A stretch of DNA of 59,182 nt, the filler included, from Porpidia crustulata (taxonomy: Eukaryota), in the NCBI GenBank assembly GCA_964255105.1. It is 3 parts of 3 records of this genome, joined end to end, with 100 filler letters (N's around TTAATTAATTAA, not from the genome) between each part and the next. Parts side by side here need not be neighbours in the genome. Positions count along the whole stretch, not along the records: positions 39,543 to 59,182 come from CAXUWE010000135.1; 2 more parts are not named here. One strand, given 5' to 3'. Below the pieces are notes generated by a model. The model saw only the letters and a list, made by a program, of their open reading frames with translations, was not told the DNA's origin and made no database searches. A program made the position numbers and the translations under genes. Numbering within the stretch: the first letter of the stretch is position 1; each line of letters begins with the position of its first letter. This document shows positions 12,410 through 59,182 of the stretch, piece after piece.

Positions 12410-13574
12410 CACACGTGGATATGTAACATTAAGCATGGCAGAGGGGTACGTCGAAGGTCTCGGCGACAACAGCTGGTGGAGGACGTAGGACGTCCGGACT
12501 CGATTGCATGACTGGCGCTTGCTCATGCACGGAGATAGGCCATGCATTGACAATGGCTTTCGACCATTCTACGAGAAATGTTACACATGAACCAACGAGC
12601 ATTCAAAGCATAGATTTAGGGACATTGGTCTTTTATATAATTTAAATCTTTCTGGTGGGCTCTGAATATCTTAAACATGAGAAGAATATGTATGAGTGTA
12701 CAAAAGTATCGGAGCCGCCGAGACGACCGCGACCGTTTGCGTCGGAATCCTCTGGGTGTCACAAACTGCAGGAATAATCCAATAATTTACAGGATGAGGG
12801 CTTGGCAAGGCATGATTCGCCAAGTTCCGAAGCACGCTAACATTATACCTTAATTACGCGCGCATTGATGGAGGTTGGAGGCTGAGACTGACTTTGCCTC
12901 AAGAGATCTCGACGACTCACATCGCTTTGATCCGGTGGTGTCGACGCAGTTCAATCGTGGCGGTGGTTGTGAGTTGGCGATACAAATTGTGGACCGTAGC
13001 TTTACACTTTGGTTCATCGCATGTCCGCTGAATTCTTAAGCGCCCCCAATATCGCCTCTGAGTCCTCTGACCTTCGTACCTCGTCTCAGGTGCTTTAACG
13101 CTTGGTCTTTACTCCTACAATCGTCTCGGAAAGTGCAATGTACTTTTTACTGGCTAGCATGGTCGAGTCAACACTGCAACGGATGTGGCGTGACACTGTA
13201 GATCCACTGCTGGGCTGTGAGCATGATTACAGCATGGTTAATCTCCGACCCTAATCGAATTCTTCTGCTCTATCCTCATCCTCGATCTGTCTTCGCTGTC
13301 TGTGAATTGCTTGCTTTGCTTTCCTTGTGTATAGCTTCCGAGGCTGGACCTTCTTAATCTTATTGTTTCCCCGCACAATACAGGTCACTCTTTCTTTTTC
13401 GGGCACCTGTCTTTACTTCTCACATTCTTTAATTTCTTACACCGCTGGACGGATACAACAGTAACCTGGTACGGCTGTAAGAGGAGTTTGTCCCTCCGTA
13501 GTTCAATTGGTGTTTACTACGGCTTGTCAGCAATATCTGCCACTCCAGTCTTTATGCTACAGGTTTTGCCTGCC

Positions 13575-19672: not shown

Positions 19673-19772
19673 NNNNNNNNNNNNNNNNNNNNNNNNNNNN
19701 NNNNNNNNNNNNNNNNTTAATTAATTAANNNNNNNNNNNNNNNNNNNNNNNNNNNNNNNNNNNNNNNNNNNN
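19673..19772. other. Assembly gap with artificial TTAATTAATTAA linker
   Basis: N run - ttaattaattaa - N run, 100 nt; identical structure at 39443-39542. Confidence 0.97.
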
Positions 19773-34273: not shown

Positions 34274-36316
34274 TCAAGATGTTCCTAATGGGTGATCCTC
34301 GATATGCCACCCGTACGTGGATGCTAGCCTACAAATGCTTTGAGTATGGGTCTTCTGGTGCTACTGTCACCTTTACTGACCTGCTCTGGAGATGTTCAGC
34401 TGCTGTAATCACCTTGACCTTCCCCGCGTTGTTTGATAGCCTAATATCGTTGGGACGTCTGCCGTCAATCAATGCGCTTGGAACCGGTATCAATACCGTA
34501 TCGTCCGCTGGGTGGCAGAAGTAGGCTATGCTGTATCTGTCTTCTTTACTGCCGCCTGGGAGCACAACCCTGTGAATTGTACTCTTCAATAGGCTGTTCG
34601 TCCAGTGATCCAACAAGTCTCCGACATTGACCAGGATAGGTGGGACTTGGTCAGCAGCAGTGCCTTTTGGATAAACCGGCACTGTAGACCAGGTCGACTG
34701 AGGAGTAAGAATCTCTAGACCGGGTTGCTGAGGTCTTTGGAAAAGAAGTGTGAGTGAGCCTTGCAATATGCTCAGTTACAGGACGAGCCAAGAGAAGCCG
34801 CTGAGACGTAGTAAATACCATAATCACTGTGAGCACCAGCACGAATCTCGCTTTTGAGGATCTCGGTAGACGTGGGGTACTAGTTTACAATAAGAAGGGG
34901 AAAGCAGCATAGTCTATAAGGACTCGCGAATTACATATAGAAGTCGAAGAGTACTTCCCGAGGGACAATTGGAGATAGCATGTCGAGAAGAAAACCAGTC
35001 CTTCCCACCGTCGTCGGCTTGGATCTGAGTCAATTATGAACACGGTTCTTGATGATGTATGATGAAAATATTTACGTACCTTTAGGCCAGTCGCAAAAAG
35101 GCCAAGAAGCTTCATACAGAGTTCGCGACACAGATCTGCGAACTGCCTGATCTGCTCCTCACGGGTTTGCAGAGCCTCCGGTAATGGCTGCTGGGCTTTG
35201 CCTGCGACGAACTCACCAATGTTGAAGGCTCTGAGTAGCGTGAGCGTTGGATCTACCAAATCTTGAATGGGGGCCACTATAACTCCTTATTATCTCCCAC
35301 CTTGAAAATCAATTAGTACGGGCCATAATAAGCTTTTTCTAAGAGCAAATCGGTACAAAGTATCATATTCAATCGGCAATGAAGAAATAGCCACCTTCTG
35401 GGTAGTGTGGAAGTAGCTCTGGTTTTTCTCTCTCTTCATATTAATGTGCGTATGCAGCCTGGGGCTATGAAGGACGGTGTTAATCAGATAGAACATTTTC
35501 TGCATGTACATGATTTCCAAATGAAATTTACGTTAGTCGATATTGTATAGCTTAAGCTAGATGAGCTTTTTGACGTGATGTGTGTCCCCCTAGGGCTAGA
35601 GGGGCATTCGACGTTTAGCCACCTAATTAGCCAATAAAGTTAGATAGGCTACTTCTCGTTAGATGTGCCTCCCCGAGCTGTAAGACGACCTGAAGTTTGG
35701 CCTTCTGGGATTAGAAGGCAACCTCGAGTCTAGCCATCCAGCAGTCAGAGCTAGATGGGCTTCTTGTCGTATTATGCGGCCCCCTAGGGCTAGGAGGTAG
35801 AAGTAGCTCTGGATAAGAAGGCCATACCTCGGACTGTTCATAAATCCGAATCTGCACAAAATCGAAAACACCTACTATCTAGTGTAGTGGCAATGACCGC
35901 GAATGAGATATACTAATTACCTTCTGATGCTCAGGGTCTAATATCTCAGAACCCTTTGAGGACCATCCCTTATTCTAACATATGGTAGCGAAGTTCGCTG
36001 CAGAAGATAGGTAGGGGATCCCTACATCAGGCCCGATTGCGTAATGCATTTTTTCTTCAAGGGGTGATTGAAAAAATCCACGAGACCGTTGAAGGGATCA
36101 GCAATCTTTGAGGAAGCCTAGTCAAAGCTAGGCCTTAAGTCTTACCATATCAAATATGCATTTGATGACTTCAGGCGTAAAACCAGACCCTGCACTCTTG
36201 ATATACACAAAACCCCACCGCGACGTAGCCTTTACGAGGTCATCGCCCGTACGTTTGGGAGGGTTGGAGAGATCAATGACTGGAAGTTGGAGTACATCGC
36301 CGTGCAAAGATGCCAT
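34274..36316 (-). CDS. Fe(II)/2-oxoglutarate-dependent oxygenase (IPNS/DIOX family)
   Basis: LPVIDLS...WGFVYI, RAGAHSDYG, LVNVGDLL..WTN..LKSTIHRV, RYSIAYF, EHLQSR|LASTYG; long intron 35920-35301. Confidence 0.88.
35423..35799 (-). mobile_element. Short non-LTR retroposon (5'-truncated LINE or SINE) in an intron, with 13-bp TSD
   Basis: gaagtagctctgg duplicated at 35410-35422 and 35800-35812; degenerate A-rich tail on the minus strand; 3' end matches 39385-39441. Confidence 0.8.
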
Positions 36317-39442: not shown

Positions 39443-39542
39443 NNNNNNNNNNNNNNNNNNNNNNNNNNNNNNNNNNNNNNNNNNNNTTAATTAATTAANN
39501 NNNNNNNNNNNNNNNNNNNNNNNNNNNNNNNNNNNNNNNNNN
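39443..39542. other. Assembly gap with artificial TTAATTAATTAA linker
   Basis: Same 100-nt N-linker-N structure as 19673-19772. Confidence 0.97.
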
Positions 39543-40472
39543 CCCCGATCCAAATCGCCACATCTCCCGCATGATGCTCATACCCCGGCACCACCACCTC
39601 CCTCTTGCCCACAAACCCCACGCTCTCGAAAAACATTTTCCGGTCCGCGGCAGCATCGACGCCAACCGCCACGCCGTCACGGTCCGCGAGGTCCAACGCC
39701 CACTGCAGCAGTGCACGGCCGTACCCGAGGCGCCAGTAGGCCGGGTGCACGGCGATGGCGATGCGCATCGTGGAGCGGAGGTGCCTGCGGGAGGTTGTTA
39801 ATTTTCTTGGGTTGGTTGATTAGGGTTTTGTTGGGGATAGTCTTGAGGTGGCGCCGCTTTGGGGGCTTAAGACTTACAGATGTTTGTCGTGGGCGGTGGC
39901 GTCTGAGAGACGGGCGGTGCCTTCCACGCATTGGTCTCGCTTCTGGGACTTGGGGGGGCGGTGGACCGCGAGCCAGAACGATGATGGGCCTGATGAATGG
40001 TGTCAGTCGGTACGGGAAATATTTGTTTGCGAATCTATCAACCTTCTGGCATAAACGTGCCAATCGACTTGGCACCATCGGGCAGACGGAATGCCGCGAC
40101 GCCCACGATACCCCTATGGCCCTTGGATCCGGACGGAACGAAATCGCCGCTGAGCGTCGGATACAACTTCCTCAAGGACTGGTACGTTCGCAAGGACTCG
40201 TCCGGGTCCAACTCGCCTTCGATCACGATCGCGGCCCGCTTCGGATCCAAGATCGCCTCGCGGAACTTATCGCGTTCACCCGCTAGGGTGTCGGTTGCGT
40301 TTCCGCTGAAGAACGGGGTCTTGTACTGGAAGATGGGGGAATGATAGAACGAAGCGGCGGCAACGACGCTTATACGATCGAGGTCGGCCAAGCGGGCCAG
40401 GCGAACGTTGGAAGGCGGGGACGTTGGTAGAGACATTGTTGAAGACGGGCCTAGTCTTGATGGGCTTGTCAT
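39543..40472 (-). CDS. GNAT-family acetyltransferase, 3' end lost in the gap
   Basis: VRLARLADLDRISVVAAASFYHSPIFQY N-terminus, IVGVAAF, acetyl-CoA motif IAVHPAYWRLGYGRALLQW..DLADRDGVAVGV, FESVGF. Confidence 0.8.
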
Positions 40473-41809
40473 GGTGTTGTTCGAGAGGTCTGGAATTTTC
40501 CGGTGTGTTGCGTCTAAGGAGCTGTTTACGGTAGCCTGTGCGTTCTGTGGTCTTTCTACTAAATCAAATTCTTGAGTAGGTGCAATTGATATTCCTATAG
40601 TGCCACTTATAAGAAAATAGAAGAGTGAGAAGAAACAATGAGCAATAACATTCACTTTGCTAGGAAAGTGCAACCGCACAAGTAGTAACACAAAACAGCA
40701 ACACAACAAACACAAGCTCAACAGATCTTGCGGAAAGAACGTGAATCTTCATCACACTTGCACTTGTGAGAAGCTTCACTGTGAAGGCGACATACTCCCT
40801 TCACAAATCTAGCGATGAGAAGCTTCGTCCGACAATCCCCTATTCATGCTCAGGCGAGTGCCTTGCAATCATTGCTAACGAACAACAAAATCAACTCCGG
40901 AGCTTGCCAGTCGGCACATTAAAACCGATAAGAAGTACATGATAGAACAACTTAGCTGTACCCGGTGTCGTGGGCTATATCCCTTTACATTGCGTAAACG
41001 TAGTGTCATACAGGCACACAGGCTCATCTAAATCAGCTGTGCCCTTGAATCGGCAAGGCTCTTCCACATGACCGTAGCAAGCTCGTAGTATGCTTTTTTC
41101 GAGGTGACTAGCTACTGACTGGTCCCATTATGGCTTATTGAACATCGAACATCGAATATTATGGAAATAGTAATGGAGCTTTTGCAGGACGTAGATACTG
41201 ACCTAGGCTATGCGATCATCGTTATGACCGACCACGCTCCGGAACCATTTGAAGGCAACTTTATGTGCTGCTTTGAGCAAGGAGCTATTTATGCTTGTTT
41301 TCAAGTCAAAGCGTCGATCGGTGGCTAGTGGCCTGAAATATTGGGCAGGACAAGAAGACGGACGGCCCAAAGTGAGGTATCTTCAGGTACGGCAAGATAC
41401 CCGAGGGAATGCATGGAACGTAGTCGGGTGGATAAGGCATATAGATGGACAGGTACCTAGGATGCTAGGCACCTAGGGATCTTACTAAAGTCATGAGAAC
41501 TAAGGAAGCCAAAGTACTTGTCAGGGTTGTGTACAGACCCCAGAAAAGAGGGCAAGGACCGTGTTAATTATTGTGAGAGGTGGAGATGTGAAAAGACAGG
41601 CCGTCACTGTTCATGTTGAAAGCCAGCCGTTGAGAGTATCAAATTCGTTGCCTGCTTGCGTTCCGCCGTTTCTTCACTATCAAATTAAACACAATCTTGA
41701 GGCCTAGTAATCGCAACATAAGAAAACCTGAAACACCCTGAACGCTAATGCTAGAGTGATCAGCGGCTTGCTTGCGTAAGAACGTAGGGAGTCTTTGGTT
41801 TTAAAATGT

Positions 41810-43647
41810 TTACTCCTCGCCCTCCAACGGAGCCTGCTCCTCACTACGACACAGGAACAGTCAGTACCATTTACCCCTGTTACGAGTATTTGTGGGCTTA
41901 CTACTCTTCTTCTCCCTCAGACACAGAAGCCTCCTGATACTGCTGATACTCTGAGACCAGATCGTTCATGTTGCTCTCTGCTTCAGTAAATTCCATCTCA
42001 TCCATTCCTTCGCCAGTGTACCAATGCAAGAAAGCCTTTCGTCGGAACATGGCTGTGAACTGGTCGCCAACACGCTTGAAGAGCTCCTGAATCGAGGTGG
42101 AATTACCAATAAAGGTAGCGGACATCTTCAGCCCACGAGGTGGGATCGAACAAAGCGCGGTCTGGACATTATTGGGGATCCACTCGACAAAGTAGGAAGC
42201 ATTCTTGTTCTGTACGTTCCTCATCTGGTCCTCTACTTCTTTCATAGATACTTTGCCACGGCTGCCATAGAGTTAGCAATTAATGAGAGGCCTAATTGTG
42301 TAAGAAACGTACAAGATGGCAGCACAAGTCAGGTAGCGGCCGTTTCTGAAGTCAGAAGCAGCCATCATGTTCTTTGGATCGTACATCTGTTGCGTCAATT
42401 CTGGGACAGTGACAGCGCGGAACTTGGAAGCACCACGGCTCGTGAGCGGTGCGAAGCCGACCATAAAGAAGTGAAGACGAGGGAAGGGAACCATGTTGAC
42501 GGCCAATTTGCGGAGATCGGAATTCAGCTGACCGGGGAATCTCAAACAAGTTGTAACGCCAGACATGACAGCTGAAACCAGATGGTTAAGATCGCCATAT
42601 GAAGGGTTAGATAGCTTCAAGGTACGGATGCAAATATCGTATAATGCCTAACGTAGTCAATATTCTGTTGCCACAAGCAACTGATTCGGCGTCCATACCT
42701 CGTTGTCGATACAAAACGTCTCGTCCGAATTCTCAACCAGCTGATGCACGGACAAGGTGGCGTTATACGGCTCAACCACAGTGTCCGAGACCTTGGGCGA
42801 CGGTACTACCGAAAAGGTAGCCATCATTCGGTCTGGAAATTCTTCGCGAATCTTCGAAATCAATAAAGTTCCCATACCAGCGCCAGTACCACCACCGAGA
42901 GAGTGAGTGATCTGGAACCCCTGGAGACAGTCACAGCCCTCGGCCTCTCGACGCACAACATCGAGAACTTGGTCCACTAATTCTGCACCTTCTGTGTAAT
43001 GACCCTTCGCCCAGTTGTTGCCAGCTCCAGATTGGCCAAATACAAAGTTGTCGGGACGGAAAAGGTGACCAAATGGGCCAGCACGAACAGCATCCATGGT
43101 GCCGGGCTCAAGGTCCACGAGGACAGCACGAGGAACATATTTATTGTGCTCAGCCTTTGTATTGAGTCAGACAGGTTATTGGTCTTCATATCCAGGGTCA
43201 GCTCTACCTCGTTGAAATAAACGTTCATGCGCTCGAGCTGAAGATCTGAGGTCCCATTGTACCTAGTCAAGTTAGATAATTCGCGGGAGACGGCCATGTC
43301 AATTCACTTACACTCCCTCGCCGTCCAAGCCATGCTCGCCAGAAATTGTTTGCCTATACCGAGGGACAACATAAGTACGTGTTTGGGTTCACGCATGGCT
43401 TGCACGTAAGACGAACCAAAAGGCAGCACCAATTTGATTACCCTAAGCTGGTTAGTCGATGCTCGTACGAATAGATGTGGATTAACATACACATTGGCCT
43501 GTTTGAAGATGGACCTGTTGCACAGAGCTCGATTGTCAGCTACAACTCTCAGTTGGATTGATAGAGGGGTAGGAGCTGTATGTGACGCGTTGGGGGAGAC
43601 TTGTTTGCATCCCACAACCCAGGAAAACCACTCACGATTTCACGCAT
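41810..43647 (-). CDS. benA: Beta-tubulin, 8 introns
   Basis: [44 protein letters not shown], acidic tail [14 protein letters not shown]; paralog identity not established. Confidence 0.97.
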
Positions 43648-44187
43648 ATTTGAGATGCTGGACTATGATGACAGCTTTCAAAGGATGAAAAGGAGTCTAC
43701 GTTGGAAGGAGAAGGAATTGGAGCTGATTTGTAGCTAGGATGTATGTTGCGTCGAGGGAAAAGTGTCAGGGACGTGGTTGTGGGAAAGGGCTCCCTTAGC
43801 GCGTAAACATCTCTCTAGGTAATGCCTTGGCCTTCACGTGATTCGAGCACGAAACTTAGCCATTTTATATCTATGAAGAGCCCCAATCTTGCTAATCAAC
43901 GTTGTTGAAAAAGTATGAGAATATGTATTCAATGATTCTTTTAACACAACAGAATCAACGAGAATGTCACATTCTTACAATCACAGCCTGAGTGTGTTAT
44001 GGTTGCTATCGAGAATCACGAACTCATGCTAGGGTAGCGTCTTAGGAAACTGTCTCGAGTACGCATAAACCATTATAATCTTGTTATATAATTACGTTCA
44101 CCAGTTGACGCTTTGAAATTTTGCCGGATTTTATCTAATAAATCATTTTAAATATGCTTCACGGAAACATTTGACCTGTCGCTTAGC

Positions 44188-44262
44188 GAGGCATCCGGCG
44201 TCGGAAAGACTTTGACGACCGAGGCGGTGGTTGAGCATCTATAAAGGCCGCTCTTTCCGGTC
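44188..44262 (+). pseudogene. Relic fragment of an AAA+ ATPase (Walker A exon)
   Basis: ASGVGKTLTTEAVVEHL*RPLFPV matches the fungal GxxGVGKTLTAEAVAEHLxRPL pattern; TAA at 44242-44244; preceded by an acceptor-like cttag. Confidence 0.65.
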
Positions 44263-44419
44263 GATATATCTACTCTGAGTCTTTCGTTAATCTTGTCTAT
44301 TGCGTTCTATATGTGAATCAGAAACGTCTATATCTGTGTCCTACGCTCGCTCAGAGGGACTGAAGCAATCTGTTCCCAACCTTTTCACCGTATGCTTTTA
44401 TCCAATTTCTAGCCAGCAT

Positions 44420-47400
44420 TTACCTCCTGGACTCCAAAACTTCAATCTTACCCTCCTTCGTCGTACTTTCCATCAAAAACACCTGCGATGCCACGAAATA
44501 TCCAAGTCCAAGCTCCTTCATTCGACGGACAAACCTCATACCCGATATGGTCTCAAGACCCTTCTCCCCTCTCCGCTCTTCCAAAAACGCCACCATCTTC
44601 GAAAGATTAATGCGGACCTCACACTCGTGGTGTAAGAATTTGGCGCTTCCAGTCTCGTTGGTCTGCTCACCAATAAGCGCCTCAGCAATCCTGCCGGCAG
44701 CCTTGTCAACGGGAGTCATATCGAAGTGGCCCTTCGTTCCACTAAACTTGGGCAGCATAGATATTTCATCCACGAAACCTACAAAATGCTCCAGTGCTGG
44801 TACCGTTGAATCAGTGGACGGTACCTTGGCTGGCACGAATCGGTGGATCGAGGTCGGTATTCCTAGCCTCGATGCAGCCCGCTCCAGAATCTGTTCACAG
44901 GCCCATCGAGTTGCGATATAGCCATTTGAGCCATCGGTAGCAGGTGGATTTTCTGCAGCCGACACCGCCACGCCGCCAGCACTTTCTCCAGGCACTAAGC
45001 CGGCGGTAGAAGTGTAATGGATTGGAATACAACGGGCAGCAGCCATCTTGATCAACTGCTTCGTGGGTATTACATTGCTTGGGCGCAGGAGGTGGTAATT
45101 GTCACCGAATGAGCGAACCGCGCCCATGTGCAGGATCGAATCCACTTCGCCGGCAAGGGCCCAGAAATCCGACTCAGTGAGACCAAGCCAGGGCTCGGAA
45201 AGATCACCTGTGTGCGTTATGATCTTTGGTGATGACACAGCCAGCTTACGCGGCGTTCCTGCAGGCTTGTCTCGCAAACCAATACAGTGGATCTTGCTGA
45301 TGTCTGGGCTTGCAACAAGCTGCGTTAGAATGTGCTTCCCGAGGAATCCGCCTGCACCAGTAATAAGCAATACTTTCTCGGTCGTCTTGAGCGGTCCGCG
45401 ATCGACAGGTTTCCAAAAAGCCTCATCATGGAGCGCGATTTCCTTTTCCCAACTGATCAGGTCGATACTAGTGCATTCTTCAATCTGCTCCGCCATCTCA
45501 CCAAGTGTATTGGCTCCGAGAATGTCGTATAGTCGAACAGTCACATTGAAGACATCGCGAATACGAGACTGTAGCCGGACCACGAGCAATGAGTTGCCAC
45601 CAATCGTGAAGAAGCTGGTCGAAGGATTAATACTGAGCCCTAGTTCTTTGGTACCTAGGACATTTTCCCACACTCGTCGGAGCTGGATCATAGTCTCTGT
45701 AAGCTCCTCACCGTCCTCGCTGGACTTGGTGCGCTGCGGGAGGGGCAGAGCCTTGAGTGCTTTGCGATCCACCTTATAGTGATTGCTGAGTGGCATACGG
45801 TCGATTGGAATTGCCATGACAGGAATCATGTATTGCGGGACCTGGAGATGATTCAAAAGTTGCTGCAGGAATGCTTCAGTATCAACAATGTTGTGATGGG
45901 GTGCAAATACGACGTGCGCGACAAGGAATTGGGGATCGCCGTTACGGAGCGTGACCACTGCCTCTCTTAGAGCGCTACCAAAGGCAGTGACAATATTGCT
46001 TTCAATATCGCCGAGCTCGATGCGTAGACCTCGGATCTTGACTTGTGCGTCACCCGCCACACGGTTGTGGAATACCATCGCTCCGTCTTTTTGGAGGTGC
46101 GCGATGTCGCCTGTACGGTACATGGTGGTCCACCCCTGTGCGACATACTCAGGCGCCGCAAACGGATCAGGAACGAAATGATAATCAGTGAGCTCCTTAT
46201 TATTCAGGTAGCCCAAAGAAACCCCAGCGCCACCGATCCAAAGTTCACCGGGCATTCCCACAGGCACCGGCCTGAGCTGCTCGTCCAGAATATACATCAC
46301 ATAATTGGGTAGAGAGTATCCACAGGGAATACGACCTTCGGGAGGCTCTTCACGGTATGCAATCTCCATCTTGGTCGAAGAGATCGAGATTTCAGTGGGA
46401 CCGTATGAGTTGAAGAACCGGAGCTGCGGCAGGCTCAGCGTCGCGAGCTCCTTTGTGAGTGTGCTGGTAAGTGGCTCGCCACCACCGAAAGCAAAGCGCC
46501 AGCTAGAGGCCTGCTTGAGGTTAGAAAGGCCATAATCCAGCCAAAGAGAGTATTCGGCTGGTGTAGCTTTGGTGTACGTAATGCCTTCTTCTTGAATGAT
46601 TTTGGTGACCTCAATGGGATCTCCGCGCTTGCTCCATGGTACAATGTAAACAAAGCCTCCATTGACAAGCCCAGTGTAGATTTGATCAGAAGAGTGGTTA
46701 AAGGTGAAAGCACTTTGCTGGAGCACTCGTTCTGCTTTAAGGCCCCATTGTGTTGTATAGCCTTCAATTTCGTTGCGAAGTCCCGAGTGTTTGACAACGA
46801 TGCCCTTGGGCTTACCAGTCGAACCACTCGTATACAGTATTGCACTAACGGAGTCCGGTCGCGCAGAGTTGGGTACACGTGCAGAGGGCCCGGACTCAAT
46901 GCCTGATACATTGACCACTTTGGCGTTTGCGACGTTCACCTGTGGGGCATCACCGACAGTGCTATCGTCTACAATAATCGCCGCTGGTTGACAACTTACA
47001 GCGACATCTGCGAGTCGTGGCAGGGGATTTCGAAGGTCCAGTGGGATATAGACTGCTCCAATCCGCATAATCGCAAGCAGTGAGCAAGGCCAGTCTGCGG
47101 TTGCATCTTCGAAAACTAGAACCCGGGAACTCTCGCCAACGCCAGCCTTCTTCAATGCCTCGGCGATGGCCTCGATTCGGTCAGTCATGCCAGCGTAAGT
47201 GAAAACTCTGCCGTAGCCATCCTTGAGTGCGACTTTGTCCTTATTCTTCTCAGCAACCTGGTCGATCCGATGGGGCAGTGTTCCTGGCCAGGATGATTCT
47301 AGGTTCAGTCCTAAATTGTCAGCCGCTTTCTCTAAGTTCTCGAGAAAACTTACCACGTCCCATATCGAGCGCGCGTTCTAGCTCCTCGTCGCTGAACAAA

Positions 47401-50400
47401 GGAGGTTCCTGCAATGGTAAAGAGGTATCACTGGAGAAGATTTCGAGCAGATGAATATAGGTATCGAGTAGTAGTTGCGCAGCCGTCTCATCGTAAAGGC
47501 CGCCCTGGGTTCTGAATATTACGCGAGCGCTATCTGAGCTGTCCATTATATCGAGCGTCATGTCGTATGCTGTGCGTCCTGGATGAAGTTCTAGGAATTC
47601 AATTTTGGTGTTGCCGAACGGTTGCTTCTCCTGATGGCCTTGACGGTAGTCGAAGAAGGCTTGGAAGAACGGGCTGTACGAAGAAGACCGGGGCACATTG
47701 AGTTCCTTGAGGAGTACGTCGAAAGGTACTCTCGAATTTGCAAGCGCTTTGTAGGCTTTGTTTCGAGCCTCAGCAATACAGTCGCCGAATTGCTGATTCG
47801 GCTCATACTTGAAGCGCAATGTGAGAAGGTTGAGTAGAAGTCCAACGGTTCCCATAACGTCGCTATCGTTTCTGTTCGCATCAGCAATACCGATCGTCAA
47901 GTCCTGAGCATCCGTGAAGCGGAAAAGCATTGCTTTGAAAGTGGCCAGATAGAAGTGGAACGGCGTAGATTCGTGCGACTTGGAAATTTCCTTGACTCGT
48001 GCTGCCAATTCGGGCTCGAGCCTGTATTCGACCTGGTTGACGTGGAAGGACTTTAGCGGCATACGAGAGCTGACCTTGGCCATGGGAAGTAGCGGTAGTA
48101 CGGGATGGCCACTCGGAAACTCATCTCGCCAATATGCAATCTCATCATCCATGTCACCATTCTGAAAGGCTGCGCGTTGGCTCCTTGAGAAATCGGGGAG
48201 TTGGTGTGGTGGAGCACCGAGAGACTGCCGCTGGTATGCCTTTTCCAGATCAGCCAGGAAAACCTGGAGGCTAACGCCGTCCATCACAATATGATGATAG
48301 TTGAAGATCAGGTAATGTTGAGTCGGGGAAAGCGTGAGCAAAACCAAGCGCATCAGCTTGCCACTTGTAATGTCGAACGGAATGGCTTTTATAGCTGCGT
48401 ACTCAACTTGAAGTTCCTCAATGCTATTGATCTTCTTTCGCTCTAGTCGTATAAGAGAGCCGGGTAAGACTTTTTGGTGAGCCAGATCGGCTTCCTTCTC
48501 GTCCGCCACAAAACAAGTCCGAAGCGATTCGTGCCTGGTGGTGACGAGACGAACGGCTCTTTCAAAGTCGCCAATTCGTAGATTGCCGGTGATACGGTAA
48601 TAGAAACTGACGTTGAAGGCTGTTTGGTCTTCGACTAGAAGTCTCAAGAACCAGAAGCGAGACTGTGCAAAAGAAACGAGCTCGCTCTTCACGTAAGCCG
48701 ATGCTTGATCAACTCGCTGTGAGTTTGAAGCCTTTTCAGCAGCCCCCGCTAGGTCAGCTGTTGACGAGGCCGGGGAGAGATGTGTCGCAGGAGTATCCAC
48801 TGGGGATTGGCTTCCTGACGACGTTCCTACAGATGCCGCGCTGGAGGTTTCACTCTTGGGCGCCGTTTCTCTCTTGGGGGGAGCAGACTCCGCTGCTTTA
48901 AGTTCCGCTCCTCTACGTGGAAGAAGGTTTTCCGGCAATTTCTCCAGTGCCTGCTGACAAAGATCGGCAACCGAGAAACCTCCGAGTATCTTGAGGACAG
49001 GCATATCTGTTTTGAGTTCTTTCAAGAACCAGCTGCGCACTTCAACCGCGACTAAAGAATCGATACCAAGCTTGATGAGAGGAACGTCGTTGCCTACTTG
49101 TTCATCGGCGAGTTGCGATATCATTGTCAATTTGGCGGTGAAACAAGCTGCAGCCAATTTAGCAGATGCGTTTCTTAAGGTAAGGGTTACTGTACCTTTC
49201 AGGATCTCCAGTGCTTCTTCCATGGTAGATGCACCTGCAAGTTGATCGCGAACGGGTTGAGTACTCTTCTTGCCATCACTCTTAGACTCTTCGCCCTGTG
49301 CTTTAACAATTTTGTGTGAGAAGCGAGGATCGTCGAACCAGGCGACTCTCGGCTCTTCATCATCTGATACCGTCCGGCAGCCAGTGGTAAGGACCGGGAC
49401 TGCGCCCAATCCAGGAATACCAGCTCGAATTGCCTCGGCAAGCAACTGATGGAGGTCGGTCTCCGAGGTTGCTATAAAGCCAAATTGTTCCTGGGCTATG
49501 TCACTTGCCTCTATGTTCCCAATGCCGGCAATTCGGCCGATGTCGAGACAAGTGCCAGCCAGGCCGCGTTTCCTCCGTCGATTCACAAGGCCGGTCAAAT
49601 AAGCGTTGCCTGCGGTGTAGTTGGACTGCCCACTGCTACCGATGACGGATGTGAGGGATGAGAACACGATGAAAAAGTCTAGGCTGGTGTCTTTGAATAT
49701 TTCATCGAGATGATTAGTACCGTCAATCTTGGGCTTTATGACCTTCTCCATCGCCTCCAGCGACATCTCCGAAAAGAGCGTTTCCTGTACCACCGCAGCG
49801 CCGTTCAAAACGCCAGCGATAGGTAGACACATGTCCTTAATTTTATCCACGACTCTCTGCAGGTCCTGCTTCTTCGTGATATCACTGGATATTGTCAGTC
49901 CCAGACGACCTATCATGACGGTTCACTTACATCGCGAAAAACTTCACGGTTGTGCCAGCCTTCTCCATCAAAGCCTGCCACTTGACGTCCGATTAACGAC
50001 TACGACTGATCAAGCACAGATGTCCTGCTCCGTTTTGCGACATCCATTCGCAAATGGACTGGGCGAGCTGCCTAGAGAGACCAACAAGAAGATATGTCTT
50101 GTTCCTCGAATACAGAAGATTGGCGTTGAGAGGCTGCACCTGGACTGTAAGAGTATCATCTGATGACCAATCGACAATACTTGTCGGATATCTTGGCACA
50201 GACTCATCACTAATCTGGTCGGAACGGAGTAATGCGCTTGTCGTCTTGTCAATTGTAGTTGCCTTCGCATAGCTTACTGCGTTCTCAAGAGCTTTGAGAA
50301 TAGCACCATTATCGCTTAATGGTAGCAGCGACTGATAACGGAACAGATCAGAAACGTTCATTTGTTTGCATCCTGATGGTAGGCATTCCCGAATACCCAG

Positions 50401-53400
50401 AGTGGTGTCATCATCGGCTACGAGTTCGAGGTAATGCGTGAGCTTCGCTGGAATCCACTTCTTGATAAGGTGCTTCGAGGTCCAAGGATCTAATTTGAGC
50501 CATGCCAGGTCCTTCGTGTCAGGCTTCGTTGTACTGAAAGTGACGCGAATGTTCTTAGCAGCCGCTTGCCTCGCCAATGCTGAGGCGAAGAACTCATCTG
50601 GCTCGTGCACGAGCACATGGCATTTTGTCGGTACTTTGGAAATCACTGATGCCGCCAGAAGCTCACTCCCCGTGGTAGCGAGGAAAGCTGATGCTTGACA
50701 TGGAGGAAATTTTGCAGACACACTTAATAAGCTGATAATTTTGGACGAGTTATTGTCGGAAAGACTGACGAGAGTGTCGCCAGTTGCTTCATTGGTACCA
50801 ACTCCAAGGAACAAGAATGTTTCAGGTGCGACGTTCAGCGCGGATAAAGTTGATTTGGTGACCTGGACGGAGCCAAGAGGTTGTGGCATCGGTTGTTCCC
50901 GCAAGACAAGTGATGCATCGGTAGTCTGGACAATTTGGACTGTAGAGCTATAAGGATTCACGGCCTTCGTGACAGACCGCCGTAAAGAGTTGATTCTGTC
51001 ATTCTGGTCATCGTTAGGGAGTATACGAGGCACCAATAGTTGCCCATCTTCTACGTAATATTCTGGCTCCTTTGACCATAGCAGCTCCTCACGCAAAGTA
51101 CCTTTGGTGTCCCATTCATCCATGGCAGCAAGTCGTAAGACAGCCTCAGCTATGAGACTAGAGGCCGTTTGTTCCCCATATGCTAAGTCGAGGAATTGGA
51201 GAGATAGGTGTGGCATCTCATAGGCGATAGAACGACCAAAGCCAATGCTAGCGTTGTGGTATGGCTCATCTGCCCTAGCGCCTTCAGTGATCCAGAGAAC
51301 GTTCTTCGAGAGCTCAAAGAGACATTTCAAACCCTCCATCTTCTCCTCGGTAACATTCTTGAAGATTGGCTCGTCAAGGTCAACTAGATTGATAAACGTA
51401 GTCATCGGAGGAATCACATCATCATCGGTTGGCAGGCCTTCGAGGACGGTAACCTTACCGCAGAATCTTTCGACCAGCTCAGCTATCTCTTCGGCAATGC
51501 GAGAGGTCTTCAGTGACCTGTTTCCAAGAATAACCAGCTCGTCTAAATATACAGATGAGGAAGACGATAGCGGTTTTCGCAAGAACTTGATCCGATTATC
51601 CACGGCTTGGGTAGTGATGATAGAGAATGGCCATGCAACTTCGTGGAGTTCCGGTGTAATGGTATCCACTCCCGAGAATCCAGCTTTGTGCAGAGCACTA
51701 TGCCACATCACTGTCCCCGTGGGCCCCATTATGCCGCTATCGCTAAGGCTACCTAGACATTCTATCATGGTTTGAATTCTAATGGGCCCATTATCAGTGA
51801 TATCGGATATCAAGAGATAGCCACCTGGTTTCAAGAGGCGACGAGTATTTTCCAAGGCTTTTTGAAGGGATGAGATAGCATGCCGAGCGTTAGATGCGAT
51901 GACCACATCGTACGAATTCTCCTCGAACCCTTGGGACGATGGTGTTTTCTCGGCGTCGAAAATCTTGTAAGTCATTTCCTGGCTGTGCGCCTTGAATAGC
52001 TCTGCGGCCTTCTCGAAGAAGTCTCCCGAACTATCTGTATAAGTGTAGGATGAGAAGGTTTTGCCTATGGATTCCAACACTGCCTTCGTTGCATGGCCCG
52101 CCCGAGCACCTAATCAGGATACTTTAGCAACTCATGTATATATGTGTGCGGCAGTCCTCACCTATTTCTATGATCTTTGCATGCGGGTACCGGTGTGTAA
52201 CCTGCTTCATCATTCGGGCCAAATTGATATTGTATTGAGCAAACCCAAGACCTTTCTCGTAGAGGTCATCAAGCATGTGCTCCAAGATGGTGGACTGGCC
52301 TTGTACGACGGCAGGTATGTTCTCTCCAACGGCAGAGATCACTTTGAGATCGACACTTTCCGGGTATCTGCTGCTGAGTTAGTAGTTTAGCCCCCTATAC
52401 GGTAGGGATGTGCTACACACTTGCTTATCAAGGCTTTGACATGGTCATAATCATCACTAGCCCATTCTCTCGTCACGGAAGGATGTCGTCCATTGTCAAT
52501 GTTAGATAGCGCGCGGATTGTTGAGTCCCGCAGAGATTGGTGACGTGTCTCGCCATTATCACATTGCTCATCCGTAATCTCTGACTTCCATTTTTGGAGG
52601 TAGTAGTACGCCAATCTCTCGCAGAGGAAAGCAATCTCAACCTCTTCTGCGGAGGGGCGGTCATTGCTCACAATGGCGTTGCCATTTGGCGACGCCAGGC
52701 CATATTGAGTCTTGGAAAACATGGGACGATCATCTGCTGCCGTAGCAGTTGAGAATGGCTTCATGACTAGGTCTTCAACCTGGATGAGCGTCTGTTGGCC
52801 ATCTTCACTAAAGATATCGACGCTGCTGCGGATGGAGATAGAGTCGGGTTCATGTAGAACGGCAGAAAGGGGTAAGTTGGTTGATGAGGTTGACAGCGAA
52901 GCACAGAGCTCAGGATTCACTCGAATGCATTTGATCGATGTGGGGACATGCAGTGACCACAGCTGGTCATCACCTGGACTCGATTGCGCAAGGAAGGAGG
53001 CCTGGAAGGCGACGTCCAGCATGGTGGGGTGAACCATCAGGATATTGTTATTATCATCGTAATTGTAAGTAGAAACAACGGCCCGTGCCTGGTCAAATCT
53101 TCTTTCCATGGAGGACAAAGTCCTGAAAGGACCGTTGTATCCATACCCAAGTGCAGCGAGTGACGAGTAGAAGCTGTTACTGTCGATCTCCGTCATTTTT
53201 GAATTGTCGTTTGGCGTCGAAGAGAGGGTTGAGAATGACGGGGTGCCAAAAATTATGTTGACCTTTCCACTCGACACCAGTTCCATATCCGTAGACCCAG
53301 TATTCGGGCACGAGTAGACAGCAAAATCGGCTGTTTGGTTCTTCACATTCTGGCGGGTAGAAACACCTGTCAGGGTGACGAGTGTCTCGACCGCGAAGTT

Positions 53401-56400
53401 CGAACCTTTGTCAAAGCTAATGGCCTTGCCAATGGTGAGATTGTGCACTTCGAAAACTTTGACATTCCTGTTACCAGCGAGTTTCTTTGCTGCTTCCAAG
53501 GCCATAGCTACGTATCCTGCTGCAGGAAATACAGTCTGGCCCTGCAGCTGATGTCCATCTAGCCATGGGATCTCGGTCGCCTTGAGGAAATTCGTCCAGC
53601 GAAGGTCAAGATCTGTATTGTTTGGAGACGGAACACCCAACAGCTCATGAAAAGCAGCACCTCTTAGTCGCATCTTCTTAGCGAGGCGTGATTCGTGCCA
53701 GTGAATTCTTCCACGGTCCCATTGGTATAAAGGCAAACCGACCGCCAGCTTTGGAGATTGACCAGGCAACACCAGTCTACCATATGACTGGAAGTCAACT
53801 GCACCTGGGCCAAGCTGGGTCCATACGAAACCCAGTGCATCCGAAAAAGCTTCAACATCGTTCTTGCCCCGGCTTAAGACACTAACGTATGAGAGTGGCG
53901 ATCGAACATCTGATATACTCTGTTGGGCTGGGCCCTTTAGCGCTGGGTGGGGACCAACCTCCATGGCGAAGTTTAGGTTCTCATTTGCAGCACTCTTGAT
54001 GGCATCCGCGAACAAAACTGAATTGACCATGTTGTCTTTCCAGTATAGATCACAAAGCTCATCGATAGGCTCCATTACTTGGCCAGACTTGACACTTGAG
54101 TACCAGGAACAGGATGTGCCGCGGTTTTTATTGACTTGGATCCCACAAGCTCGCAAAGAATCGATATATGGCTCGCTGCAAGGAACCATGTGGTGAGAGT
54201 GATATGCGGTGTCTACTTGGAGCATTTTAGCAAACTTCTTCTCTTCGTCAAAGACCTTTTTAACATGAGCTAGGGCATCAACATCTCCGGAAAGTGTTAT
54301 GCTGGCGGGAGAGTTGTGAGCAGCAATCTTCACGCGCCCTTTGAAAGCCGGGAGCTCTATTAATTCCTTGGCAGCTTCCCACGACGTCCCGACAGCAAGC
54401 ATGGCACCTTTCTGCCCTTTGGAGCCTTTAGCAAGTGTAGCATGTACACCTCTGTAGTAGGCAATGCGAATGGCATCATGAGCGGAAATGAAGTCAGCGG
54501 CGTATGCAGCTGCAATTTCTCCGGAAGAATGCCCTACAACTGCCTCAAATGTAATGCCCGCACTCCGTAATAAATTGACCAGGACAAGTTGAATGGCTGT
54601 GCAAAGCGGCTGCGATAACGCGGCTTCACCTAGGCGAGAAACCTCTTTGCTTGCGCAAAGCTGATCTGCAATCCGCCATGACGGACGGTTTGCCTCAGGC
54701 AAAGTTGCTAAAGAATGATCGAGTTGCTCAATCTCCTCGCGGATACTGGCCGAAGAGCGGATCAGCTGTGCACCCACAGTTGCCCATTGCGCGCCTTGTC
54801 CGGTGAAAACACCTAGCATCCGGGGTTTGGCAGGAGCTGATTGAACACCGATCTTAGTTCCGGGAACACTTTTCGTCTCTGCAAGGCTTTTGTCAATCTT
54901 GGAGACAAGTCCTTCAAGAGTGAGCGCTGAGAAGGCTATCTTGGATGGAAGTACGGATCTACGTGACTGGAGCGTCCAGGCCAAGTCACAGAGGTTGATT
55001 GTGTCGTTCGTCATCAAGAAGTCTAAGTAGCTATGCAAGAGCGCATCCAGTGATTCATTTGAAGCTGCAGAGAAAGTAAAAGGTGTGAACGGCGTGGTCT
55101 GTAGGTCTTGGGTCTCGTTTGAGGCCTGGTAGCTCTCCAGGATTGCATGTCCATTGGTGCCTCCGAAACCTGTGGTATGTCAACACAGACTCACATGTCC
55201 TGGCAACTCTACATACCAAAGCTATTCACACTCACTCGTCGCGGTACTCCTTCTGGCAACGTGGGCCATTTTATTGCGGTAATTGGAATGTGCAGATTGT
55301 GATAGTGCTGCTCGATGTCGGGATTCAAGCGATTGAAGAGCATGTTTGGAGGTATTATGCCGTTTTGTATTGCCAGACTAGCCTTGAGAACGCCAGCGAG
55401 CCCGGCAGTACCCTCTGTATGGCCAATAATAGTCTTTATTAATCCGACGTAAAGAGAATTTCCGTTAATAGACTAACCTCCAAAACACTCACTAATAGCT
55501 GCAGCCTCGCGAGGATCGCCGACTTTGGTGCCAGTACCATGAGCCTCGAAGAATTGTGGCCAATTTTGAGGATTTGAGATATCTAAGCCGGCTCTGGCGT
55601 ATGTGCCCCTAATCAAGGCTGCCTGAGCTTCGGAGCTTGGGACCGTCAAGCCAGTGGAATTTCCGTCTTGATTGACTCCCGTCTCACGAATGAGGCATTC
55701 AATGTAGTCACCATCAGCAACGGCGTCACTCAACTTCTTCAACACAACTGCTGCAATGCCGTCGCCTCGCGCATATCCGTCTGCATCAGCATCCCACATG
55801 CGCGAACGGCCGGTGGGCGAAAGCAGGTTCATCTTACTTGGGCCAACAAATTGTTCTACATCTGTCAGCTTTCCCCACCCCGTCTGATTGCGAAGACTTA
55901 CCTGGTCCTAAGAGCAACTCTGTGCCGCCAGCAATGGCTACACGCGACTCGCCCGCGCGCAGAGACCGGACGCTCTGATGTAAGGCAACCATACTCGACG
56001 AACAGGCAGTGTCAATAGTCATCGAGGGCCCATGCCAATCGAAGAAGTATGACAATCGGTTCGAGAGAATAGCGCGGGAAGTGCCGGTGGCAAAGTAAGT
56101 GGGTGTGCTGTGGATATCCCGCATAATAATGTCATTGTAGTCGACGGACATAGTGCCGATGTAGACGGCGGTGTCAGAGCCGCGGAGGCTCTCGACGGGG
56201 TGCCCGCCAGCTTCGAGGGCCTCATACACCGCTTCCATCAGCAGGCGCTGCTGCGGATCAATCGAATCTGCTTCATTGGGGCTGATGTTGAAAAAGTTGG
56301 CGTCGAATACACGCACGTCCTCATCCAGCATGTACGAACGCTGTACGTTGGTTGTCCCATGATGTGAGCCCTTGGGATGATAGTACCCCTGCAATTCAAA

Positions 56401-56538
56401 CCTTTCGTCAGGAATCCCTTTCGACACATCCCTAGGCTTCTCCAGAAGCTTCCATAACGATGATGGGGAGCTCGAGCTCCCTGGGAAGCGACAACCGCTA
56501 CCCACAACAGCGATGGGTTCAGGCTGTTGAAAAATCAT
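44420..56538 (-). pseudogene. Hybrid PKS-NRPS (KS-AT-DH-MT0-KR-ACP-C-A-T-R) with two in-frame stops, tetronate-synthetase-like
   Basis: [98 protein letters not shown]. In-frame TAG at 55473-55475 and TAA at 49993-49995. Domain call is firm; pseudogene status is less so. Confidence 0.8.
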
Positions 56539-57461
56539 GACTCAAGATATCCTCTTCAGACAACATTCGAAAGGGTTCTGAGAAGTTAGACCCGTCATAC
56601 AGTACAAGAACCTAGTTCAAATAATCTTTTCATTTGGAAGCTCAGGTGATGCACTCAAGTGTCTTACCTAGGCATCTATGAGTTTAATCTATCTCATATT
56701 CTGTTTCATAGCGCGTCGAAGTAATGGAAATCGCCGACAATCTCGGGACCTACAGCCATCATGGTGCGGGTGTTTATCAACAGTCTTCGCACTCGATTCA
56801 ACTTGGTTCAACTTGATTTCCAATTCGGCGATTGTACCTCGAGTAATCTGATGGAAATTAAGGTCGGCTAATGGCTTTCGCCATAATCGTCTGATCTTGG
56901 CCATCCGCCTATTAGACTGGGAGTATGCGTCTAGGTCGATCTGGAAGTAATGCACATGTGTTTTTTCTATTCGTGGTGTATTTTGAGAGACTCGTCAATG
57001 TATAGCTACTGAAGGCGTTACCTAGGCTTTGCCTTTTAGCGTCCTGTTTACGCATGTATAGGTACTTTATGTAAGACTAAGTGCGTTCAATTGAAGATTG
57101 CGGCTGTTGAGAACCGTTACCTCTGGCTTGCTATGACGTACAATGACGCAGTTAATCCTAGCTCTGAAAGTACTCGTTTCGGTGGTTAATGTACAACCCC
57201 TGGAATTATCATAGGCGATTTTCAATTTCTACATAGAAGACGTCGGGCAATCTTTTTCCAGCTCTAATCCACATGGAGATAAGATCTGAAAACCACCGAG
57301 GGACGTATGATAGAATGTTTATTCCTGTCCTCGCTCTATGGTTAGTACACTTGAGATCAAAGACCACTAGAAGGTGCGGATAGCTAATATATATATTCGA
57401 GCCATGGAACCCCGTACGGAAGTTATTCTCAGGACCACACATTCGCCATATAAAATTTACC

Positions 57462-58535
57462 ATGGCTGACATAATCAAAGCCGTTCAGATCGATGACTAT
57501 ATCCCGAGCATCGACCTTCGTGGATATTTCGAACCAAATTCTCCTACGAGCAAAGATGAAGTTATTGCGAAAGTGAGAGCGGCATGTTTGGAACACGGCT
57601 TCTTCCAAATTGTGGAACATGGGGTACCGATCGATATTCAGCGGCGAATGCTTGCCTGCTGCAAAACTTTCTTCGATATGCCAAATGAGCAAAAGACTGC
57701 GCTTTCACTTCGCAAATTTTCGTGGCGACGTGGATATGAGTACAATGAGCAGAAGCCGAGTGAAGATGTCCTACCGGACATGAAAGAGGTAAGCGGAGTG
57801 AGATTCTCCTTCGAATCAATTTAGCTCACGTCAGACAGGGGTTCTTTGTAGGACGGGAATTGCCCGTCGAGAAGATCGACTTTTTCAAGGGACCGAACGT
57901 CTGGCCAGACCTTGCAGAAAGTGAGTTCCGTCAGCCTGTTCTGGAGTACTACGAACACATCTTGCACCTTGGAAGGAAAGTCTGGGAGGTGCTTGTCGTT
58001 AGCTTAGGACATCCGCCCACTGTATTGGACAAGTTTACGAAGGAGGTTGCCATGTAAGGGAGACAGTCCATATACCTAGATCTTTGCCTTCACTAATCAA
58101 TTCCTTAGGCTTCTCAAACTTCTCCACTACCCGGCACATACCTCCACAGACCCACGGCAATTTGGTTCCGGTGAACACACAGATTACGGCGGTATCACCA
58201 TACTTTTGCAAGAACCTGGAAAGGATGGTCTTGAGGTGTGGCACGCTGCAACCAAACAATGGATCTATGTTCCTGCAGTCGAAGATAAATACGTCATCAA
58301 CTTGGGCGACATGGTGCAAAAGTGGACTGGAGGTGAGTACAAAAGCACGGTCCATCGAGTCCTCAACAAAGTACGTGGCGAGCGATTCACTGTGCCGGCG
58401 TTCTGGTACGGTGATCTCGACGCTACGAATCCTTTGGATCCAAATGACAAGAGCGGGGAGACGGTATCGCAGCATATCCAGAAGAAGTTTAGCAGGGACT
58501 ATGCATTGCCACCAGAGGCCATTACGGTAGCCTGA
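57462..58535 (+). CDS. Fe(II)/2-oxoglutarate-dependent oxygenase, probable tailoring enzyme of the PKS-NRPS locus
   Basis: IPSIDL...ACLEHGFFQI..HGV, GPNVWP, LLHYP, HTDYG, INLGDM..WTGG.YKSTVHRV; introns about 57789-57838 and 58054-58108; reading frame intact. Confidence 0.92.
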
Positions 58536-59182
58536 CATGTCGAAAGAAGGGTCTAGCTCACGTAGGTAGCTGATGTGTCTTTTTCCGAGGGATCTCGTCA
58601 TATTTTCCTTGCGCAATTTTCTCTGCAGCAACTTCCCTATTTCTGGCTGCGCCACTTGAAAGAACTCTCCCAGGCAAGGCATGAAGGTTGCTTGACAAGG
58701 GGTGTCTTGGCATCGTTGACTCGATCATGGCAAGATTTCTTCCGTGCCTTACAGCAGTCTACAATTATAATCGATCTGACTGACTGGTTGACTGGACACC
58801 TTTCGATATAAACTTTGTAACGGCAATATGTTGATAATTAACCGCCTATGTAATCTTACCTATAGCGTATGAACTGAAAATCATTTGCTAGCATGTTAGC
58901 TAACCGAGCCGCTTTATTCGAGCCGCGGGCCACTCCTTCCGGGCCGTTCTAGGTACCACGCCTGCACGCGTATCTACCTTAGCTTCATGTTGCGCGACTG
59001 CACATGTTAGTGATTTTCACCCAGGCTTCTGTCCGGACAACTGCTGTCCGCGGATCATGTCACAATACTCCTTGTCATACTATCCTCGCCTTCAGTCATT
59101 GTTCTGATTGGATGTTTGTCAATCTTGCCCAGATCGAAAAGCGCCTGTACCTTGGCAGTCAACTTTACGCTAGACCTGCTGT

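What the first reader, a model, noticed from the sequence alone, without database searches (positions are those of the whole stretch)
44420..58535. Candidate tetronic-acid cluster: PKS-NRPS predicted to load a hydroxy acid, paired with a divergent 2OG oxygenase
Seen: the A-domain segment reads [13 protein letters not shown], with Asn (codon 46697-46699) in the usual FDxS position, and an intact Fe/2OG oxygenase is head-to-head across about 920 bp. Known: that Asp (GrsA D235) binds the substrate alpha-amino group and is typically replaced in hydroxy/keto-acid-activating A domains. Fungal acyltetronate hybrids (TraA, CaaA) use L-malate, and TraH, a 2OG oxygenase, oxidatively decarboxylates the product. 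Inference: this is an ester-forming acyltetronate pathway rather than the common tetramic-acid type.
Basis: partly seen in the sequence, partly recalled or inferred. Interest (0 to 1): 0.78.

Follow-up and report, generated by a model that had tools for sequence, protein, structure and literature searches.

The report
Broken fungal tetronic-acid synthase gene
This is a fungal copy of a known pathway for tetronic-acid metabolites, and its giant core gene has been switched off by two premature stop codons, so it is ordinary and probably inactive in this strain.

Summary
The chemistry call is right, but this is known biology and the gene is broken. The Asn (46697-46699) aligns with the conserved Asp of LgrA and PsoA. 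The ten-residue pocket code NHDKFGSISK is identical to that of Aspergillus niger CaaA and Trichoderma ThnA. The A domain is 80% and the whole protein 68% identical to CaaA, and KS, C and A trees group it with CaaA. The divergent oxygenase (923 bp away) has TraH as best solved-structure match (about 65%). It keeps the iron, 2OG and key Lys/Tyr residues, but has a shorter lid and His288→Tyr.

A second assembly, probably of the same reads, shows the same letters. A relative (L016, 86% DNA identity) has sense codons at both sites. dN/dS of 0.20 points to a recent loss. The cluster is bounded by beta-tubulin and continues with a Zn2Cys6 regulator; no trans-enoyl reductase lies in the DNA seen.

Verdict: a new, recently pseudogenised member of the CaaA acyltetronate family.

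The parts
44420..56538 (-). Hybrid PKS-NRPS gene, CaaA orthologue: KS-AT-DH-MT(degenerate)-ER0-KR-ACP-C-A-T-R*(Dieckmann type). 8 exons: 56538-55902, 55855-55217, 55169-52421, 52367-52162, 52109-49931, 49884-49196, 49147-47354, 47310-44420; 3927 codons before the terminal stop; pseudogene
   Evidence: Pfam; gene model; 67.6% identity to CaaA, 72.7% to a Letharia lupina protein, 54.5% to ThnA
55473..55475 (-). Premature stop TAG at codon 340, inside the KS between the two catalytic His motifs
   Evidence: sense codon in relative L016; no rescuing intron
49993..49995 (-). Premature stop TAA at codon 2116, inside the KR
   Evidence: sense codon in relative L016
46697..46699 (-). Asn codon at the D235-equivalent position of the A domain (pocket code NHDKFGSISK)
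45698..47290 (-). Adenylation domain, 79.8% identical to CaaA and 68.7% to ThnA; Tyr before the catalytic Lys where 80 of 83 homologues have Ser
56539..57461 (.). Divergent intergenic region, 923 bp (shared promoter inferred)
   Evidence: same layout in L016 and in contigs of runs X2 and X3
57462..58535 (+). Fe(II)/2-oxoglutarate oxygenase, TraH subclade, 3 exons, 322 aa, intact, with remodelled lid loop
41809..43648 (-). Housekeeping beta-tubulin gene (approximate ends); left boundary of the cluster, not part of it
   Evidence: Pfam Tubulin; the only close copy found in G000; read
39443..39542 (.). N spacer between unrelated contigs; the cluster's contig (G000:C135) is window 39543-59182

Best explanation
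A small acyltetronate cluster of the CaaA type whose core gene has recently died in this strain. How the intact version most likely works (inferred from CaaA, TraA and TraH): the iterative PKS half builds a short, probably unmethylated beta-keto acyl chain. The A domain, with Asn in place of the amine-binding Asp and His/Lys in the side-chain pocket, activates malate and loads it on T. The C domain joins the acyl chain to malate's hydroxyl as an ester. The terminal R* domain closes the ring by Dieckmann condensation, releasing a 3-acyl-5-carboxymethyl tetronic acid. The divergent TraH-like oxygenase then removes the carboxyl oxidatively to give an exocyclic methylene. A Zn2Cys6 regulator follows. 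With no trans-ER in the cluster, the side chain would stay unsaturated unless an unlinked reductase serves. Shown here: anatomy, orthology, pocket code, catalytic motifs and the two stops. Inferred: substrate, product and oxygenase reaction. In this genome translation ends at codon 340 in the KS, so no synthetase is made, while the oxygenase and regulator still have open frames.
For: Pocket code identical in the window, CaaA (P0126, P0134) and ThnA (P0146), and in 81 of 83 fungal hits; the other 2 differ only by missing positions (names). Quick trees place the window with CaaA and apart from ThnA: A domain 12 rows, SH-aLRT 98; KS 8 rows, 100; C 8 rows, 99. CaaA makes carlosic acid and agglomerin F and is suggested to activate malic acid, form an ester and release by Dieckmann cyclisation (PMC5381763, passages). 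Oxygenase versus TraH: E 4e-68 for exon 3 and top hit for all three exons. It keeps the HxD...H triad and R280, Y195, K191, Y214, G215, F286, D112, K114 named in PMC13083874. 22 of the 83 Asn-type hybrids share a contig length with such an oxygenase, 21 of them also the organism name (counted by eye; a lower bound). Stops: the contigs of run X1 covering both show 0 differences; L016 reads Gln and Thr there; every frame-keeping intron candidate over stop 1 (7 of 7) removes the KS GHT motif, and the 1 candidate over stop 2 removes 29 aa of KR. Recent loss: no frameshifts, dN/dS 0.20, and derived amino-acid changes 31 (window) versus 30 (L016).
Against: Malate activation was not assayed, and the paper I read words it as a suggestion even for CaaA. 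X1 is probably the window's own read set, so it rules out an assembly slip but not a read-level error or a second allele; depth is only about 10. There is no excess of derived changes in the window lineage, so the stops are the only firm sign of death. The other odd substitutions (S351L, G2090R, G2093A) are no more numerous than in other members (20 private changes versus 1-55; 8 versus 7 at invariant columns). The oxygenase lacks TraH H288 and Y85 and has a 15-residue lid (TraH 20, ThnC 16); Q99 is kept or replaced by Lys depending on gap placement, and Q99K kills TraH. Trees are quick trees without bootstrap, and one Asp-type paralogue (L003) sits on a very long branch next to the Asn clade.
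Confidence: 0.85

Rival explanations
1. The gene is functional in this fungus: the stops are read errors, one allele of a mixed population, or are rescued by A-to-I editing or readthrough.
For: Selection signature still purifying (dN/dS 0.20; KS 0.056), no frameshifts, and KS, AT, DH, ACP, C, A and T motifs present; oxygenase and regulator are open. Fungal A-to-I editing corrects premature UAG codons (PMC11156358, passages).
Against: Two independent stops in contigs at depth about 10 with no variant listed there. The second stop is UAA, whose editing to UGA keeps a stop. The relative's residues are Gln and Thr, not Trp. Editing is reported as sexual-stage specific in Sordariomycetes and Pezizomycetes and was not found in A. 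nidulans or B. cinerea; the class of this fungus was not determined. No rescuing intron.
Confidence: 0.07
2. The A domain loads an amino acid such as aspartate, and the product is a tetramic acid.
For: Lys at position 278 fits an acidic side chain (recalled for Asp-activating domains), and the catalytic Lys is kept; no assay here.
Against: Asp235 is the amine-binding residue (PMC11355689, passage) and is replaced. The code is identical to two enzymes with tetronate products. Amino-acid-loading PsoA and 8 of 8 other G000 A domains examined keep D.
Confidence: 0.04
3. The hybrid is as described, but the oxygenase is not a TraH-type decarboxylase: its remodelled lid makes it a desaturase or hydroxylase on a different tetronate. 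This can hold together with the best explanation.
For: Lid 15 aa, N102 region lost, H288→Y and Y85→R, all shared with L016 and under purifying selection (dN/dS 0.083). TraH itself desaturates the methyl ester without the lid network (PMC13083874).
Against: K191, Y214, D112 and K114 are kept. ThnC decarboxylates with a 16-residue lid and no Q99. The enzyme is sister to the clade holding a close TraH homologue (P0183; SH-aLRT 98).
Confidence: 0.2

Closest known systems
CaaA (An08g03790), Aspergillus niger carlosic acid / agglomerin F synthetase
   Same: Domain order, identical pocket code, degenerate MT motif (GAGRG there, GARAG here), R* motif GYIASRW versus GYIATRW, 67.6% overall and 79.8% A-domain identity, same clade in three trees
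   Different: Window gene has two premature stops. No trans-ER (CaaB) or P450 (CaaC) homologue in the DNA seen around it. No A. niger oxygenase appeared among the 120 of 560 listed oxygenase hits, so CaaD (name recalled) was not compared.
TraA/TraH, Penicillium crustosum terrestric acid cluster
   Same: Oxygenase about 65% identical to TraH (194 of 297 aligned residues, counted by hand), same catalytic set
   Different: Lid 15 versus 20 residues, H288→Y, Y85→R; no TraG (trans-ER), TraB (P450) or TraD-like gene seen. The TraA sequence was not among my named hits and was not compared.
ThnA/ThnC, Trichoderma harzianum trihazone cluster
   Same: Identical pocket code; hybrid and 2OG decarboxylase two accession numbers apart on one contig
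   Different: Separate subclade; 54.5% (hybrid) and 46.7% (oxygenase) identity; ThnA has an intact MT motif GAGTGG
PsoA and other amino-acid-loading (tetramic-acid type) fungal hybrids
   Same: Same overall PKS-NRPS architecture
   Different: Keep Asp (FDAA); PsoA scores 334 bits against the A domain, the A. niger CaaA cluster representative 961 bits in a separate search

Membership tests
Fungal acyltetronate PKS-NRPS (CaaA/TraA/ThnA) | KS-AT-DH-MT-ER0-KR-ACP-C-A-T-R*/D architecture | tested here: met
Fungal acyltetronate PKS-NRPS (CaaA/TraA/ThnA) | Asp235 replaced; pocket code as in characterised members | tested here: met
   NHDKFGSISK in window, CaaA and ThnA. Position 235 checked against LgrA and PsoA; the other nine positions placed by recalled motif offsets, GrsA itself not aligned
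Fungal acyltetronate PKS-NRPS (CaaA/TraA/ThnA) | Groups with characterised tetronate synthetases | tested here: met
   With CaaA in A, KS and C quick trees; TraA, TenS, EqiS and CcsA not available
Fungal acyltetronate PKS-NRPS (CaaA/TraA/ThnA) | Uninterrupted reading frame giving a full-length enzyme | tested here: not met
   Stops at codons 340 and 2116. It is a pseudogene of the family, not a working member; L016 is open over the 2651 codons compared
Fungal acyltetronate PKS-NRPS (CaaA/TraA/ThnA) | Clustered trans-enoyl reductase (CaaB/TraG/ThoB) | tested here: inconclusive
   None between beta-tubulin and the regulator in G000, nor up to chitin synthase in L016. A contig gap and the DNA beyond C1814 are unseen. 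An unlinked LovC-like gene lies on C245 among housekeeping-type genes
Fungal acyltetronate PKS-NRPS (CaaA/TraA/ThnA) | Activates malate and yields a tetronic acid | not testable with these tools
   needs an assay or heterologous expression
TraH/ThnC Fe/2OG decarboxylases (clade A4 of PMC13083874) | HxD...H triad, 2OG-binding R280 and Y195 | tested here: met
TraH/ThnC Fe/2OG decarboxylases (clade A4 of PMC13083874) | K191, Y/F214, D112, K114 | tested here: met
TraH/ThnC Fe/2OG decarboxylases (clade A4 of PMC13083874) | Lid position 99 = Q, S or T | tested here: inconclusive
   Gln if a one-residue gap is placed after GYE, Lys if ungapped
TraH/ThnC Fe/2OG decarboxylases (clade A4 of PMC13083874) | Substrate-contacting H288 | tested here: not met
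   Tyr in window and L016; His in TraH and in all other TraH- and ThnC-clade rows
TraH/ThnC Fe/2OG decarboxylases (clade A4 of PMC13083874) | Oxidative decarboxylation of a 5-carboxymethyl tetronate | not testable with these tools
   needs an enzyme assay

The most novel reading that the evidence does not exclude
In this lineage (intact in L016 as far as seen) the pathway has shrunk to hybrid, oxygenase and regulator, with no trans-ER or P450. It makes an undescribed unsaturated acyl-tetronate, and the TraH-like enzyme, with its shortened lid and His288→Tyr, performs a different oxidation or decarboxylates without the Q99 water network.
Probability: 0.25. Interest if true: 0.4.

Novelty: new member of a known kind. 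Interest (0 to 1): 0.2.

Why it matters
Modestly. The Asn motif FNHSSDQ is a clean marker for fungal tetronate synthetases (83 of 83 close homologues), and the locus catches one such cluster just after loss of its core gene. The useful lead is not this copy but the relative's minimal cluster and the natural lid variant of TraH. That variant could test the lid-and-water decarboxylation mechanism proposed in PMC13083874.

Tried and rejected
Next contig by number (C136) as continuation: it carries housekeeping-type genes, and contig numbers appear to follow length, so rejected. DNA search with the contig end found no overlapping contig. Beta-tubulin as a self-resistance copy: it is the only close copy found and has a normal tail once a last intron is allowed for, so rejected. 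Splicing out of the stops: rejected. Long decay of the gene: not supported; E218P, R1551H, D2171E and E2408K are shared with L016. A motif scan for trans-ER over 30 of 32 ADH_N loci plus C253 found nothing, but the recalled pattern was too tight: it missed the C245 gene found by eye, so that blank means little. The SDR downstream in L016 has its best G000 match on another contig (C35, 68%) and was not assigned to the cluster. No RNA holder listed. The codons at the two stop sites in runs X2 and X3 could not be read, because the difference table was cut (1423 rows not shown). The rest of the L016 record is not held, so its A domain and left flank are unseen. The careful A-domain tree did not finish; the quick tree is used. 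Paper searches listed none of the primary CaaA, TraA or ThnA papers, and one search listed no paper on such a pseudogene or on a tetronate cluster in lichens; the library lacks most subscription papers. No supplements were read; those of PMC13083874 may already include relatives of this oxygenase.

Full report
Context. The window is three contigs joined by N spacers. The finding lies on G000:C135, window 39543-59182, which ends about 650 bp after the oxygenase. To the left of the hybrid is a housekeeping beta-tubulin gene, which bounds the cluster.

Observation. The motif [13 protein letters not shown] and the Asn codon at 46697-46699 are as stated. The Asn aligns without gaps to the Asp of LgrA FDGS/FDIS and PsoA FDAA; Asp235 binds the alpha-amino group (PMC11355689, passage). 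Among the 120 listed homologues (of 2916 found), all 83 with at least 60% identity have Asn and all 37 below 60% have Asp. Eight other A domains of G000 keep Asp. The oxygenase is intact (322 aa) and 923 bp away, head-to-head.

What the hybrid is. The best hits include the cluster holding An08g03790, named caaA by UniRef, and the cluster holding T. harzianum thnA. The pocket code, placed by recalled motif offsets, is NHDKFGSISK in the window, CaaA, ThnA and 81 of 83 close homologues. The spliced model (8 exons, all introns GT-AG) is 67.6% identical to CaaA, 72.7% to a Letharia lupina protein, 72.1% to a Bombardia protein and 54.5% to ThnA. Quick trees of the A (42 rows), KS and C (21 rows each) domains put it in a supported group with CaaA, apart from ThnA. 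Rows were a hand-picked subset of the hits, and TraA, TenS, EqiS and CcsA were not available. The MT motif is degenerate as in CaaA.

What is in print. [quoted passage not shown] TraA forms carboxylcrustic acid (PMC11269504, passages), and with the trans-ER TraG viridicatic acid (PMC8648635 and PMC8948627, passages). ThoE gave no product without its trans-ER (PMC12843353, passages). ThnA's tetronate products are taken from a passage and a reference title (PMC10455296).

The gene is broken. The model has two in-frame stops: TAG at codon 340 in the KS (55473-55475) and TAA at codon 2116 in the KR (49993-49995). Both sit in regions collinear with the 17 homologues aligned. The contigs of run X1 that cover them show 0 differences at depth about 10; X1 is probably the same read set, so this is not independent. 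A relative found in metagenome contigs (L016, JAABUK010000368.1; 1 of 5 loci; 86% DNA identity) has the same layout and reads Gln and Thr at these codons. All 7 frame-keeping intron candidates over the first stop delete the KS GHT motif, and the single candidate over the second deletes 29 KR residues.

Against long decay. There are no frameshifts, pairwise dN/dS is 0.20 over 2649 codons, and polarised amino-acid changes are 31 in the window versus 30 in L016. The 20 private changes at otherwise invariant columns lie within the 1-55 range of the other rows. The loss is therefore recent. A-to-I rescue is unlikely because single editing of UAA keeps a stop (PMC11156358, passages).

The oxygenase. 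TraH (PDB 9ig3) is the top solved-structure hit for each exon, about 65% identical by hand count; ThnC is 46.7%. In the tree it is sister to a clade with a close TraH homologue. Of the residues named in PMC13083874 (parts 1-2 of 8 and passages read) it keeps the iron triad, R280, Y195, K191, Y214, G215, F286, D112 and K114. It has Tyr for H288, Arg for Y85 and a 15-residue lid (TraH 20, ThnC 16). Position 99 is Gln or Lys depending on the gap. These differences are shared with L016 and dN/dS is 0.083, so they are a lineage feature and not decay. Pairing of Asn-type hybrids with such oxygenases is common: 22 of 83 share a contig length with one (counted by eye).

Rest of the cluster. In L016 the oxygenase is followed by what looks like a broken SnoaL-like remnant (recognised by eye, no Pfam hit), a Zn2Cys6 regulator, an SDR and chitin synthase. 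G000 has the regulator on C1814, 89% identical in its middle exon and collinear with L016, so C1814 probably continues C135 across a small gap; this is not proven. No trans-ER or P450 lies in the DNA seen. An unlinked LovC-like gene exists on C245; its role is unknown.

Mechanism. Inferred for the intact cluster: acyl chain from the PKS, malate activation, ester formation by C, Dieckmann release of a 5-carboxymethyl-3-acyl tetronic acid, then oxidative decarboxylation. In this strain the synthetase is truncated in the KS, so the pathway is predicted silent (0.85). Rivals: functional through error or editing (0.07), amino-acid loading (0.04), and, not exclusive of the main reading, a different oxygenase reaction (0.2).

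Verdict. Observation confirmed; interpretation right about the class and wrong in implying a working or new pathway. New, pseudogenised member of a known kind; interest 0.2.

Noticed in passing
window 19673-19772 and 39443-39542: Two identical spacers (44 N, TTAATTAATTAA, 44 N) join three separate contigs; genes on either side are not neighbours
   Followed up: yes
L016 about 12200-12630 (-): Apparently frameshifted SnoaL-like remnant between oxygenase and regulator, recognised by eye from a recalled motif; no Pfam hit and no match on G000 C1814
   Followed up: partly
L025 (G000:C1814) about 2370-5037 (+): Zn2Cys6 regulator with open exons, likely the cluster's activator; orthology to CaaR not tested
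   Followed up: partly
G000:C253 (L014, L015): A second PKS-NRPS hybrid in this genome, with the ordinary Asp (FDAS), about 42% identical in the A domain
   Followed up: partly
L062 5445-6494 (G000:C245): Stand-alone LovC-like medium-chain reductase among housekeeping-type genes
   Followed up: partly
window 34329-34775 (-): Another 2OG-Fe(II) oxygenase fragment, on the middle contig and so unrelated to the cluster
   Followed up: no
window 39543-40440 (-): GNAT-acetyltransferase-like gene by eye, cut by the contig end; no Pfam hit
   Followed up: no
window 963-38650: Housekeeping-type genes on the other two contigs: Sir2, sirohaem synthase, rabenosyn/FYVE, elongation factor 3, phosducin, G-protein beta, MYND finger, MKT1
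   Followed up: no
runs X2 and X3 laid on window 44000-59182: Two further samples hold relatives about 90% alike that cover both the hybrid and the oxygenase; no frame-shifting indel among the listed rows for the long contigs (tables cut)
   Followed up: partly
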